DNA of 64,000 nt, from IMG/VR virus record IMGVR_UViG_3300032216_001891, positions 1 through 64,000 of that record; one strand, written 5' to 3'. The first letter of the stretch is position 1; every line of letters begins with the position of its first letter. The position numbers and the translations under genes were made by a program. Positions 28,107 to 29,759 of the stretch are shown here, piece after piece. A model generated the notes under the pieces. The model was not told the origin of the DNA and did not search any database. It saw only the letters and a program-made list of their open reading frames with translations. The DNA comes from a virus (lineage: Duplodnaviria; Caudoviricetes).

Positions 28107-28502
28107 GAAAGCAGTTTGCTTTCCCGTCTCATCCAGATTAATTGGTCATACTTTGCCCGCTAGGGGGCAAAGGTAAAAAACTGCCTCATCCGAGTAGCAC
28201 AGTCATTTAGCGTTAGAACTACTGAGTAAACTCTACTCTTCACAGGCGGTTGTCCGGTACCTGCTCGTTCTGTCTTTATACAACGGCGGCGGTTAAACAT
28301 ACGCTAACACATTTAACCACGTGTGGGCATTACCCACTCTTTTAGCCTGTTCCTACATCCATTCAAACAGCAAAACCGGTTCCATAGGCATATCCGATCC
28401 ACGTCCTGTCAAGGATAGTTGCTGAGTGCTCGTACAGCCGAGTCTTCCCTCCCTGTGACGCTGGGTCCAGTTGTCGGGGCACACGATGTTGACCTGTGCT
28501 AG
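28107..28502 (-). ncRNA. Large structured non-coding RNA candidate (unknown family)
   Basis: ORF-free and GC-richer than its flanks. Has a long-range closing helix, about ten local helices and a 7-bp loop pseudoknot (see findings). Confidence 0.65.
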
Positions 28503-28506
28503 TTTG

Positions 28507-29331
28507 TTACTGTTGTGACTGGGTGTCTAGGTTATCTAAAAGTGCCTGAGAGAGAAATTCAAAATATTTTTGATTCGACTTGTAGCCGGGGTGTAATCCG
28601 TCGCTGTTAACATCAACTCTATTTTTTTTTAAAGAATTGTAAAGATTAAGCCAATGTGATTCTTGTATTCCGCCCATGCTGTTATAATTGTTGTGTATTT
28701 TGTTGTACAGTGTATAAATTTCATCATCATCTCTGTTATCGATATTTAATATTTTTTTAGTGTAGTTGGTGTAATTATATGGCAATGTATTTTCTTTTTT
28801 AGTAAAAAAATCTTGATCCCAATCGCATAATCCATTGATAAAAAATATTAGACATTTTTTTAATTTACATAAATTTGTCAAAATATTAACATAATTAACT
28901 ATTTTAGAAATTTCGTAATACGGATGATTTAGTGTAACCACTCGGTCTCTTAGATTTTCTAAATATTTTTTTGTATAAGTTATCTCGTTTACTCCAAGTT
29001 GCCTGTTGGTATTGTCTGGATCAATTGGGGCATTTGGTATAAAATTTACTTTAGTTTCATAAGTCTCAATACCTACATCAAACAAATATCTAGGGTAACT
29101 GGTCCATTCAACAAATACAAATTTCGTATCGTATTTTAATATATGTTCAACAGAGTCAATGAATATTTGGTCGTTACTGGCTCCTCCGACTCCACAATTT
29201 ACTAATTCGGTATTTTGCAATATTTTAACATTTTTGTGTAGAAGATTTACCCACAGGCCAGGATCATTTTTTTCTAATGCAAATCCGGCCCCTGCTGTAA
29301 ACGAACAACCGCTAAAAAGTGTAATATCCAT
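28507..29331 (-). CDS. SGNH/GDSL-like hydrolase-fold protein
   Basis: FSGCSFTAG (block I), GVGGASN and C-terminal DGLHPG (DxxH). Visibly AT-rich. Confidence 0.6.
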   Translation of the reverse strand: MDITLFSGCSFTAGAGFALEKNDPGLWVNLLHKNVKILQNTELVNCGVGGASNDQIFIDSVEHILKYDTKFVFVEWTSYPRYLFDVGIETYETKVNFIPNAPIDPDNTNRQLGVNEITYTKKYLENLRDRVVTLNHPYYEISKIVNYVNILTNLCKLKKCLIFFINGLCDWDQDFFTKKENTLPYNYTNYTKKILNIDNRDDDEIYTLYNKIHNNYNSMGGIQESHWLNLYNSLKKNRVDVNSDGLHPGYKSNQKYFEFLSQALLDNLDTQSQQ

Positions 29332-29759
29332 TAAATTTTATTTTTAATATGAGAGCCGTGTACACGAACACTTATCTGTCCGTTATAGTAATTGTCTGAT
29401 TCCAAAACTTGGTGTCTAAATTGTTCTCTTGCTTCAACGTAACTGCATTCTGCCTTGCTTTTGCAGTAGTATAGTATTTCTCTTGTGAAATTGTCAACTC
29501 CCAATTTCTCCACATCGGCATTTAATTCTGCGTTTGAGCCATAATATGATTGCCAGTCACTATCAATCTTACTTCTAATCTTTTTCTTACGCTTGGTGCC
29601 GTTTTTTAATTTTATTGTCTTGTATGTAGTTCGACTAAATTTTGCTAATTTTTTTCCGATATACCGCCTACCCGTAGTTAAATTTGTTATAAGATATACA
29701 AATCCAACACAGTCCTCGGGCAATGCTTCCACAGGAGAGTTTTCAAATAGCCATGTCAT
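29331..29759 (-). CDS. Stand-alone GIY-YIG endonuclease
   Basis: GFVYLITN...YIGKK, YYGS, E(AREQ) and YYN. Catalytic domain only, 142 aa, with a Lys/Arg-rich insert. Confidence 0.85.
   Translation of the reverse strand: MTWLFENSPVEALPEDCVGFVYLITNLTTGRRYIGKKLAKFSRTTYKTIKLKNGTKRKKKIRSKIDSDWQSYYGSNAELNADVEKLGVDNFTREILYYCKSKAECSYVEAREQFRHQVLESDNYYNGQISVRVHGSHIKNKI

What the first reader, a model, noticed from the sequence alone, without database searches (positions are those of the whole stretch)
28107..29759. Possible nuclease-ncRNA system: minimal GIY-YIG co-oriented with the large RNA
Seen: a 142-aa GIY-YIG with no appended DNA-binding domain but a very basic insert (KTIKLKNGTKRKKKIRSK) lies upstream of the RNA on the same strand. 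Only an AT-rich SGNH-like ORF separates them; it overlaps the nuclease stop (TAATG) and ends 5 nt before the RNA's first helix, so it looks like an insertion. No terminator is evident in between. Known: HEARO/omegaRNA elements pair compact nucleases with large structured RNAs, although T4 EndoII is a similarly small GIY-YIG that needs no RNA. Inference: an undescribed ribonucleoprotein (RNA-guided or RNA-regulated nuclease), perhaps acting with the adjacent gp46/47 recombination nuclease in replication, packaging or host-DNA degradation.
Basis: inference. Interest (0 to 1): 0.8.

Follow-up and report, generated by a model that had tools for sequence, protein, structure and literature searches.

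The report
Twin-box RNA beside phage nuclease
A small DNA-cutting enzyme gene of this uncultured freshwater giant phage is followed by a real, roughly 450-base knotted non-coding RNA; the two genes almost always travel together, but each also occurs without the other, so nothing shows that the RNA guides the enzyme, and its job is still unknown.

Summary
Three features follow each other on the minus strand with no terminator between them:
- a 142-aa, catalytic-domain-only GIY-YIG nuclease (29331-29759);
- an AT-rich 274-aa ORF (28507-29331, TAATG stop/start overlap);
- a large RNA (about 28046-28507).

The RNA's first 140 nt are Rfam Polynucleobacter-1 (100.9 bits). The whole is a roughly 450-nt RNA with 12 covariation-supported helices and two pseudoknots.

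In uncultured freshwater T4-like phages the RNA follows this GIY-YIG in 73 of 81 informative RNA-anchored loci and 73 of 75 nuclease-anchored loci, usually within about 60 nt of the stop. The AT-rich ORF is an insertion.

The pair is separable, however:
- six RNA loci carry an unrelated PD-(D/E)XK nuclease instead, and one 85%-complete genome has no GIY-YIG;
- Polynucleobacter chromosomes carry the RNA with neither nuclease nearby;
- more than 500 cultured-phage records carry the nuclease family, and the four checked have no RNA.

There is no guide-like end segment. Instead one 7-nt word occurs twice, identical in 142 of 144 RNAs although it changes often. I could not find what reads it.

An RNA-guided nuclease is unsupported. 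A conserved nuclease-RNA gene module of unknown function is supported. This scan has already found the same twin-box RNA on other DNA.

The parts
29331..29759 (-). Stand-alone minimal GIY-YIG nuclease gene (142 aa; PF19835 / phrog_447 family)
   Evidence: Pfam E 2e-34 and PHROG E 1e-38. Catalytic Y22, Y33, R93, E109 and N126 are invariant. The AF2 model has pLDDT 91.6. The best structural matches are the I-TevI catalytic domain (Z 8.4), PD-T4-3 (Z 7.2), T4 EndoII (Z 5.4) and UvrC (Z 5.3).
28507..29331 (-). AT-rich 274-aa ORF inserted between nuclease and RNA (SGNH-like by motifs only)
   Evidence: GC is 22-35%. There is no Pfam or PHROG hit. Homologues at 41-49% identity lie elsewhere in three related loci: downstream of the RNA on the other strand in L129 and L178, and upstream of the nuclease in L162. 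In 66 of 73 loci the RNA starts within about 60 nt of the nuclease stop; 7 of 73 carry a 0.8-1 kb insert like this one.
28046..28507 (-). Full-length twin-box RNA (about 450 nt), made of the sub-parts listed below
   Evidence: nhmmer similarity to 92 loci extends over about 460 nt. There are 54 pairs in 12 helices, 97.7% paired, 40 pairs with compensatory changes, and a covariation score of 0.456 against 0.181 shuffled (0 of 500) and 0.04-0.10 slid.
28365..28504 (-). 5' domain = Rfam RF01718 Polynucleobacter-1
   Evidence: cmscan 100.9 bits against a gathering score of 37, model positions 1-141 of 141.
28200..28364 (-). Central domain with two pseudoknots, not in Rfam
   Evidence: A hairpin loop (UUAGCG, about 28302-28307) pairs with CGCUAA (about 28207-28212). 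GUUG (28281-28284) pairs with CAAC (28249-28252), crossing the helices GAAC/GUUC and AGGU/GCCU. All of these pairings covary. No other Rfam family matches at E up to 1.
28185..28195 (-). Box A: ACUC + 7-nt word GGAUGAG, in the loop of a hairpin
   Evidence: The word is identical to the box B word in 142 of 144 non-redundant RNAs, across 14 or more different words. The closing stem ACUGU/GCAGU was read from the sequence.
28151..28172 (-). Conserved hairpin (UUUGCCC...GGGCAAA) between the two boxes
   Evidence: Covarying stem, helix 12. Present in all RNA types.
28128..28138 (-). Box B: AUCU + the same 7-nt word GGAUGAG, single-stranded between two hairpins
   Evidence: These are the only two copies of the A-YYY-word pattern in the 154.5-kb record.
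28066..28087 (-). Terminal hairpin with a conserved purine-rich loop (GAACGAAGUGAA here; GAGCGAnAGCGAA in most relatives)
   Evidence: Conserved in phage type I and II RNAs and in the Polynucleobacter chromosomal copies.
28046..28064 (.). Hairpin acting as terminator for the converging plus-strand late gene, and probably marking the RNA's end
   Evidence: Terminator-like site on the plus strand. The converging ORF 27796-28023 ends just before it.

Best explanation
The locus is a conserved two-gene module at the end of the gp47-gp46 recombination-nuclease transcription unit of freshwater T4-like giant phages.

The first gene encodes a stand-alone, catalytically intact GIY-YIG DNA endonuclease. 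Its family works without any RNA in hundreds of other T4-like phages.

The second is an autonomous, roughly 450-nt, doubly pseudoknotted RNA, an extended Polynucleobacter-1 RNA. It is most likely made as the 3' tail of the same transcript; here the inserted ORF's mRNA lies in between.

The RNA's folded core displays one short word twice. Box A sits in a hairpin loop and box B in a single-stranded stretch. I infer that the two boxes bind two copies of one partner that is not encoded next to it.

The link between nuclease and RNA is one of gene arrangement, timing and probably shared pathway (DNA transactions). It is not RNA guidance of the nuclease.

Shown: the fold, the synteny, the separability and the twin-box rule. 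Inferred: co-transcription, trans action, and the pathway.
For: - The RNA is real and large. RF01718 scores 100.9 bits. Twelve helices and two pseudoknots show strong covariation.
- Synteny holds from both anchors. RNA-anchored: 32 of 32 loci and 73 of 81 informative loci. Nuclease-anchored: 73 of 75.
- Flanking genes vary, with at least 7 upstream and at least 8 downstream neighbour families.
- Co-transcription is plausible. Both lie on the same strand, gaps are mostly -11 to 60 nt, there is no terminator between them, and the sigma70-like site inside the nuclease ORF is kept in only 33 of 129 relatives.
- The two are separable. PF24608 PD-(D/E)XK nuclease lies next to the RNA in 6 loci; L251, L319 and L231 there are bona fide RF01718. 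Record G001 (302 kb, 85% complete) has the RNA and PDDEXK_15 but no GIY-YIG. G006, G007 and G008 have one GIY-YIG and no PDDEXK_15.
- The RNA is in 16 of 141 Polynucleobacter genomes, on 2-Mb chromosomes, with twin boxes but no GIY-YIG or PD-(D/E)XK hit within 1.5 kb.
- The nuclease family is in 531 cultured-phage records. No RNA follows it in Melnitz, phiN3, S-SCSM1 or ACP17.
- The basic beta-hairpin and the catalytic residues are family-wide.
Against: - Adjacency is kept far better than at the neighbouring gene junctions. When the GIY-YIG is missing, another small nuclease takes the same slot, twice with a gap of only 3-15 nt. This hints at more than shared transcription.
- RNA type (I or II) largely follows the nuclease tree, with 8 switches among 144 proteins.
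- No transcript data exist, so co-transcription and the RNA ends are inferred.
- The partner of the twin boxes was not found, so 'trans-acting' is unproven.
Confidence: 0.45

Rival explanations
1. The RNA and a neighbouring enzyme form a true partnership. The RNA works physically with whichever small DNA enzyme is encoded beside it: GIY-YIG, PD-(D/E)XK nuclease or, in bacteria, a 188-aa tyrosine recombinase. It uses its two identical boxes to hold two identical DNA (or RNA) strands, or to choose the enzyme's site, as a homology bridge or guide.
For: - Adjacency is tight, and there is non-orthologous replacement in the same slot.
- All three neighbour enzymes are minimal catalytic domains without obvious DNA-binding domains.
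- The boxes are exposed, fast-changing and always matched.
- The RNA is as large and knotted as known RNP scaffolds.
Against: - One RNA would have to fit three unrelated folds.
- The GIY-YIG family, basic hairpin included, is the same in phages without the RNA.
- No protein column covaries with the box letters; the highest normalised mutual information is 0.18-0.36.
- No site carrying each genome's own word is conserved in five near-whole genomes, and own words are not enriched.
- In bacteria the recombinase is next to the RNA in only about 5 of 13 loci.
Confidence: 0.15
2. The RNA is a cis-acting 3' UTR element. The structured RNA stabilises the mRNA of a potentially toxic nuclease, times its decay, or feeds back on it. 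For example, the nuclease or a host factor could bind the twin boxes.
For: - The RNA begins within a few nt of the stop codon of whichever nuclease precedes it.
- No conserved promoter or terminator lies in between.
- From my own knowledge, T4 controls endonuclease VII (gene 49), gp32 and gp43 through RNA structures in their own mRNAs.
Against: - About 450 nt with two pseudoknots is far more than a stabiliser needs.
- About 10% of loci, including this window, have an unrelated ORF inserted between the two.
- In L220 the nuclease lies downstream of the RNA.
- Bacterial copies have a divergently transcribed gene upstream and no nuclease.
- No complement of the boxes lies in or near the nuclease gene.
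Confidence: 0.15
3. The RNA gene is a landing pad. Like tRNA and tmRNA genes, it attracts mobile DNA enzymes (free-standing endonuclease genes, integrase-bearing islands), so the neighbourhood reflects their insertion preference and not a shared function.
For: - In Polynucleobacter a small tyrosine recombinase lies about 400 nt downstream of the RNA in about 5 of 13 loci.
- In G145 a partial copy of the RNA's terminal hairpin plus downstream sequence lies 98 kb further on the same strand, as island direct repeats would.
- Two nuclease families alternate beside the RNA.
Against: - The GIY-YIG is not sporadic. It is single-copy in 5 of 5 long records, and the family sits in other genomic contexts in 531 cultured-phage records.
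- It lacks the DNA-binding domain of Seg-type homing enzymes.
- The island junction was not resolved and was seen clearly in only one genome.
Confidence: 0.1

Closest known systems
Polynucleobacter-1 RNA motif (Rfam RF01718; Weinberg et al. 2010, PMC2864571)
   Same: The first 140 nt match the full model at 100.9 bits. The authors noted a freshwater origin, a Polynucleobacter genome copy, and a position 'downstream of genes of family GOS11034' with possible homology to a cyanophage P-SSM2 gene.
   Different: - The catalogued motif is 141 nt, while the RNA here is about 450 nt.
- The uncatalogued rest holds two pseudoknots, the twin boxes and a terminal hairpin.
- Two further types (II and III) share only the 3' module and give no Rfam hit.
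- The authors found no copy in purified phages and classed the motif as possibly cis-regulatory. Here it lies on phage contigs of up to 346 kb and usually has no gene downstream on its strand.
HEARO / omega-RNA with IscB or TnpB (OMEGA systems)
   Same: A compact nuclease gene lies next to a large structured RNA on the same strand.
   Different: - The nuclease fold differs: GIY-YIG, not RuvC/HNH.
- No HEARO or other Rfam hit.
- No IS200/605 context.
- No free guide at an RNA end.
- The RNA and the nuclease also occur apart.
Catalytic-domain-only GIY-YIG nucleases: T4 endonuclease II (PDB 2wsh), I-TevI catalytic domain (1ln0)
   Same: The fold and catalytic residues match: Z 8.4 to 1ln0 and Z 5.4 to 2wsh. 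The size is about 140 aa. In cyanophage S-SCSM1 the homologue follows nrdA-nrdB, where, from memory, T4 keeps denA.
   Different: There is no detectable sequence similarity to solved structures. The protein has an extra long basic beta-hairpin. Its substrate is unknown.
IS110-family bridge RNA (from my own knowledge)
   Same: A structured RNA beside a DNA enzyme displays two short specificity segments.
   Different: There the enzyme is a DEDD recombinase and the two loops carry different sequences (target and donor). Here the two segments are identical, and no mobile-element ends are seen.
Large ornate phage-borne RNAs of unknown function (GOLLD, ROOL; from my own knowledge)
   Same: Several hundred nt, multiple pseudoknots, encoded by phages and also by bacterial chromosomes, function unknown.
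   Different: No sequence or model match. This RNA has a fixed nuclease neighbour and the twin-box rule.

Membership tests
Rfam RF01718 Polynucleobacter-1 | Covariance-model score at or above the curated gathering score (37 bits) over the full model | tested here: met
   100.9 bits, model 1-141 of 141, window 28365-28504 minus strand.
Rfam RF01718 Polynucleobacter-1 | Lies downstream of the conserved gene family noted by its authors | tested here: met
   Authors' note. Here the upstream family is the GIY-YIG in about 90% of loci. That GOS11034 equals this GIY-YIG family is my inference and was not checked.
OMEGA systems (HEARO/omega-RNA with IscB or TnpB) | RuvC (with or without HNH) nuclease encoded next to the RNA | tested here: not met
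   Only PF19835 GIY-YIG is found. The fold search gives GIY-YIG nucleases only.
OMEGA systems (HEARO/omega-RNA with IscB or TnpB) | RNA matches a HEARO or omega-RNA model | tested here: not met
   cmscan at E up to 1 over 27700-29900 gives only RF01718 plus a chance miRNA hit.
OMEGA systems (HEARO/omega-RNA with IscB or TnpB) | Freely variable guide of about 15-20 nt at one RNA end | tested here: not met
   The alignments show no such segment. The only fast-changing letters are the duplicated 7-nt word.
GIY-YIG nuclease superfamily | GIY and YIG tyrosines, Arg, Glu and Asn of the active site; alpha/beta GIY-YIG fold | tested here: met
   Y22, Y33, R93, E109 and N126 are invariant. Z 8.4 to I-TevI 1ln0.
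Free-standing homing endonuclease (Seg type) | Catalytic domain joined to a C-terminal DNA-binding domain | tested here: not met
   The 142-aa protein is covered by the 123-position catalytic-domain profile from residue 3 to residue 129.
Free-standing homing endonuclease (Seg type) | Sporadic presence among close relatives | tested here: not met
   One copy in each of 5 long related records. The family is in 531 cultured-phage records. It is absent only where PDDEXK_15 is present.
T4 endonuclease II (DenA) orthologue | Sequence or close structural similarity to DenA | tested here: inconclusive
   No PDB sequence hit. 2wsh scores Z 5.4, below I-TevI and PD-T4-3.
Type III toxin-antitoxin (ToxIN-like) | Tandem RNA repeats upstream of an endoribonuclease toxin | tested here: not met
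   The RNA is downstream, is not a tandem array, and its neighbour has a DNA-nuclease fold.
IS110 bridge RNA | DEDD recombinase and two loops with different (target and donor) guides | tested here: not met
   No such enzyme in the locus. The two boxes are identical.

The most novel reading that the evidence does not exclude
The twin-box RNA is a homology bridge. Its two identical, exposed words pair with the same short sequence on two DNA (or RNA) molecules. The RNA thereby positions or licenses whichever minimal DNA enzyme is encoded beside it (GIY-YIG, PD-(D/E)XK nuclease or small tyrosine recombinase). This would be an RNA-specified DNA-processing system unrelated to CRISPR, OMEGA or bridge RNAs.
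Probability: 0.08. Interest if true: 0.9.

Novelty: new variant of a known kind. Interest (0 to 1): 0.55.

Why it matters
An orphan RNA motif catalogued in 2010 turns out to be the head of a roughly 450-nt, doubly knotted RNA. It is common in giant freshwater phages and is also found in bacterial chromosomes.

It obeys an unusual rule. One short word is written twice and changes in step, dozens of times in evolution. That calls for a reader nobody has identified.

Its near-constant place beside small DNA-cutting enzymes makes a role in phage DNA transactions testable. The results also warn against reading every nuclease-plus-RNA pair as an RNA-guided nuclease.

Tried and rejected
- Cis Watson-Crick partner of the boxes: none by mutual information, none within 1.5 kb.
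- Partner elsewhere in the phage. The own record has no other copy or complement. Two whole genomes have 2 extra same-sense 11-mers each and 0 antisense. Five genomes with five different words show no enrichment and no homologous site carrying each genome's own word.
- Protein read-out by the GIY-YIG: no covarying residue.
- Box B self-dimer (AUCURGAU palindrome): broken in words with C at the second letter.
- Mini-ORF, stop-codon or ribosome-bypass reading: the frame is not kept across linker lengths, and a UCA variant exists.
- Group I intron, HEARO, GOLLD, ROOL, tmRNA: no Rfam match.
- Own promoter for the RNA inside the nuclease ORF: an 11-of-12 sigma70 match here, but not conserved.
- Similar DNA in cultured phages: none.
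- Endonuclease VII in the complete relatives: no hit, but the search had no positive control.
- DUF6641 in the phages: no hit, also without a positive control.
- Island junction exactly at box B: suggested in one genome, not borne out across 15 genomes.
- Fold of the AT-rich ORF: the model was too poor to search.
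Full report
**What is there**

The window is the first 64 kb of a 154.5-kb IMG/VR virus record, estimated 44% complete. It is a T4-like phage: a gp46-like SbcC ATPase lies at 31415-33184 and baseplate-hub genes lie on the other strand.

On the minus strand, downstream of gp46, the order is:
- a short-chain dehydrogenase;
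- a radical-SAM/SPASM protein;
- the 142-aa GIY-YIG ORF (29331-29759);
- a 274-aa AT-rich ORF (28507-29331) whose ATG overlaps the nuclease stop (TAATG);
- an ORF-free stretch that converges on a plus-strand late gene ending at 28023.

Rfam places the Polynucleobacter-1 RNA (RF01718) at 28365-28504 on the minus strand, at 100.9 bits against a gathering score of 37. Nothing else in 27700-29900 matches any family at E up to 1. No minus-strand terminator-like site lies between the nuclease and the RNA. The observation therefore stands.

**The RNA is much larger than the catalogued motif**

A profile of window 28040-28510 matched 92 fetched loci, and in most of them the match ran over about 460 nt.

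Mutual information on 59 non-redundant copies gave many Watson-Crick covarying pairs along the whole length, including long-range ones. RNAalifold found compensatory changes in 33 of 52 predicted pairs.

I then wrote down a structure of 54 pairs in 12 helices and counted it on the 47-sequence alignment A1:
- 97.7% of cells form a standard pair;
- 40 pairs have changes on both sides;
- the covariation score is 0.456, against 0.181 in shuffles (0 of 500 reach it) and 0.04-0.10 when partners are slid.

Two pseudoknots are supported. In one, a hairpin loop pairs with a downstream strand. In the other, GUUG/CAAC crosses two further helices.

It runs through a small hairpin (28107-28123) and a terminal hairpin (28066-28087) whose purine-rich loop is conserved even in the bacterial copies. 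It ends at the terminator hairpin 28046-28064.

I ran three samples.
- RNA-anchored, first sample. A 15-mer of the 5' domain pulled 119 viral stretches. Thirty-two hold the RNA, and all 32 have the GIY-YIG directly upstream on the same strand.
- Nuclease-anchored. The best 80 of more than 595 viral loci encoding the protein were kept. Seventy-five have at least 144 nt of downstream DNA. Seventy-one of these carry the RNA by profile search and two more carry a third RNA type. Three have a membrane-protein ORF and no RNA within 2-4 kb.
- RNA-anchored, second sample. A 3'-core pattern gave 88 RNA loci. Seventy-three have the GIY-YIG upstream on the same strand: 66 with gaps of -11 to 60 nt and 7 with inserts of 0.8-1 kb. 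Seven are cut by a contig end. Eight have enough upstream DNA but no GIY-YIG.

The neighbours on either side of the pair vary. There are at least seven upstream families (radical SAM, gp46 itself, SDR, small ORFs) and at least eight downstream families on both strands.

Homologues of the AT-rich ORF sit at other positions in three related loci.

**The pair is separable**

Of the eight GIY-less loci, five have a PF24608 'phage PD-(D/E)XK endonuclease' upstream of the RNA, with gaps of 3, 15, about 140, 284 and 840 nt. One has it just downstream. Two have neither. Rfam confirms three of the nuclease-swapped RNAs and one of the others as RF01718.

Whole-record searches show mutual exclusion:
- G001 (302 kb, 85% complete) has the RNA and PDDEXK_15 but no GIY-YIG.
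- G006, G007 and G008 (346, 262 and 345 kb; 100, 76 and 99% complete) each have one GIY-YIG and no PDDEXK_15.
- As a positive control, the protein search found the nuclease in 5 of 5 long RNA-bearing records.

The nuclease family is also far wider than the RNA. tblastn found it in 531 cultured-phage records, all below 60% identity. They include cyanophages, Methylophilales phage Melnitz, Sinorhizobium phiM12/phiN3 and Acidovorax ACP17, and the gene is often misnamed 'NAD synthetase'. In Melnitz, phiN3, S-SCSM1 and ACP17 a gene follows it, and neither the profiles nor Rfam find the RNA.

Sixteen carry RF01718, several of them on 2-Mb chromosomes. These copies are full-length and have twin boxes. 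They have no GIY-YIG or PD-(D/E)XK hit within 1.5 kb, and PF19835 gave no hit in five such genomes, although that search had no positive control. Their neighbours are a divergent DUF6641 gene and, in about 5 of 13 loci, a 188-aa tyrosine recombinase about 400 nt downstream.

**The nuclease**

The catalytic residues are invariant. The AlphaFold model is confident, with pLDDT 91.6. Its best structural matches are all GIY-YIG nucleases: I-TevI catalytic domain Z 8.4, PD-T4-3 Z 7.2, T4 EndoII Z 5.4 and UvrC Z 5.3.

It is present, slightly shorter, in the RNA-less homologues and in some RNA-linked ones. It is not an adaptation to the RNA.

**Guide-like segment? A twin box instead**

No end of the RNA varies freely. 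What stands out are two 11-nt segments, about 57 nt apart in this window, with the form A-CUC-word (box A) and A-UCU-word (box B).

The 7-nt word is identical in the two boxes in 142 of 144 non-redundant RNAs, although at least 14 different words occur in that count. Further words (UGGUAAU, AGUUGAA, AUGAAGA) occur in divergent phage copies, and five others in the bacterial copies.

On the nuclease tree the variable letters change at least 18, 15 and 14 times, every time in both boxes. The boxes are the core shared by RNA types I, II and III, which otherwise differ in their 5' and middle parts.

Box A lies in a hairpin loop. Box B lies between two hairpins.

- no complementary column inside the RNA;
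- no complement within 1.5 kb;
- no covarying nuclease residue;
- no further copy or complement in this record;
- in five near-whole genomes with five different words, neither enrichment nor a homologous site that carries each genome's own word.

**Reading**

Each partner occurs without the other, and one RNA family sits beside three unrelated enzyme folds.

The weak form holds: a conserved nuclease-RNA gene module, probably one transcript. The persistence of 'a small DNA enzyme next to this RNA' leaves a functional link in DNA transactions possible.

My estimates are:
- 0.45 for an autonomous trans-acting RNA co-expressed with the nuclease;
- 0.15 for a true enzyme-RNA partnership;
- 0.15 for a cis-acting 3' UTR element;
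- 0.10 for the RNA gene as a landing pad for mobile DNA enzymes.

**Novelty**

The 5' third of the RNA and its position behind one gene family were published in 2010. To my knowledge, and within the searched literature, the following are not described:
- the full-length RNA;
- its three types;
- the pseudoknots;
- the twin-box rule;
- the nuclease swap;
- the phage origin.

The scan's own notebook shows that the same twin-box RNA has been found and followed up on many other genomes, with the same open question. This window adds a case with an ORF inserted between nuclease and RNA. It also adds the whole-genome evidence for GIY-YIG and PD-(D/E)XK mutual exclusion.

Noticed in passing
L279/G001, L251, L319, L231, L242, L220 versus G006, G007, G008: The small GIY-YIG and the PF24608 PD-(D/E)XK phage endonuclease look mutually exclusive in related giant phages and occupy the same slot after gp46. 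This looks like non-orthologous displacement of one nuclease function. No endonuclease VII (PF02945) hit was found in the two complete genomes, but that search had no positive control.
   Followed up: partly
G145:C1:1894703-1895549 and 1992529-1992939 (L405, L404): In one Polynucleobacter chromosome the RNA gene is followed by a 188-aa tyrosine recombinase. A partial copy of the RNA's terminal hairpin plus downstream sequence lies 98 kb further on the same strand, as expected for an island integrated at the RNA gene's 3' end. This was not borne out as a general pattern in 15 genomes.
   Followed up: partly
L296:3911-4304: A related phage contig carries a permuted tmRNA gene (RF04321, 92.5 bits) and a tRNA a few kb upstream of its twin-box RNA.
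   Followed up: no
window 29468-29497 (minus strand): A near-consensus sigma70-type promoter (TTGACA, 18 nt, TATACT; 11 of 12) lies inside the GIY-YIG ORF. It could drive the inserted ORF and the RNA in this phage. It is kept in only 33 of 129 relatives.
   Followed up: yes
window 28507-29331; L129:4840-5619, L178:4866-5651, L162:3197-3967: The AT-rich 274-aa ORF has SGNH-type invariant motifs but no profile hit. It moves around the nuclease-RNA locus in related phages (upstream, between, or downstream on the other strand), like a mobile accessory gene.
   Followed up: partly
L132:4427-4950, L196:2100-2650: A third RNA type follows the same nuclease. It shares only the two boxes (word ACAUGAA), the hairpin between them and the UGAC motifs with types I and II.
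   Followed up: partly
L124:4851-5210 and 15 other loci: A DUF6614 gene (PF20319) is a frequent converging neighbour just downstream of the RNA. The bacterial copies instead have a DUF6641 gene (PF20346) diverging upstream. Both are of unknown function.
   Followed up: no
L206 (Synechococcus phage S-SCSM1) 1-2899: In this cyanophage the homologous GIY-YIG gene follows nrdA-nrdB, the place where, from memory, T4 keeps denA (endonuclease II). In GenBank and PHROGs the family is widely mislabelled 'NAD synthetase'.
   Followed up: no
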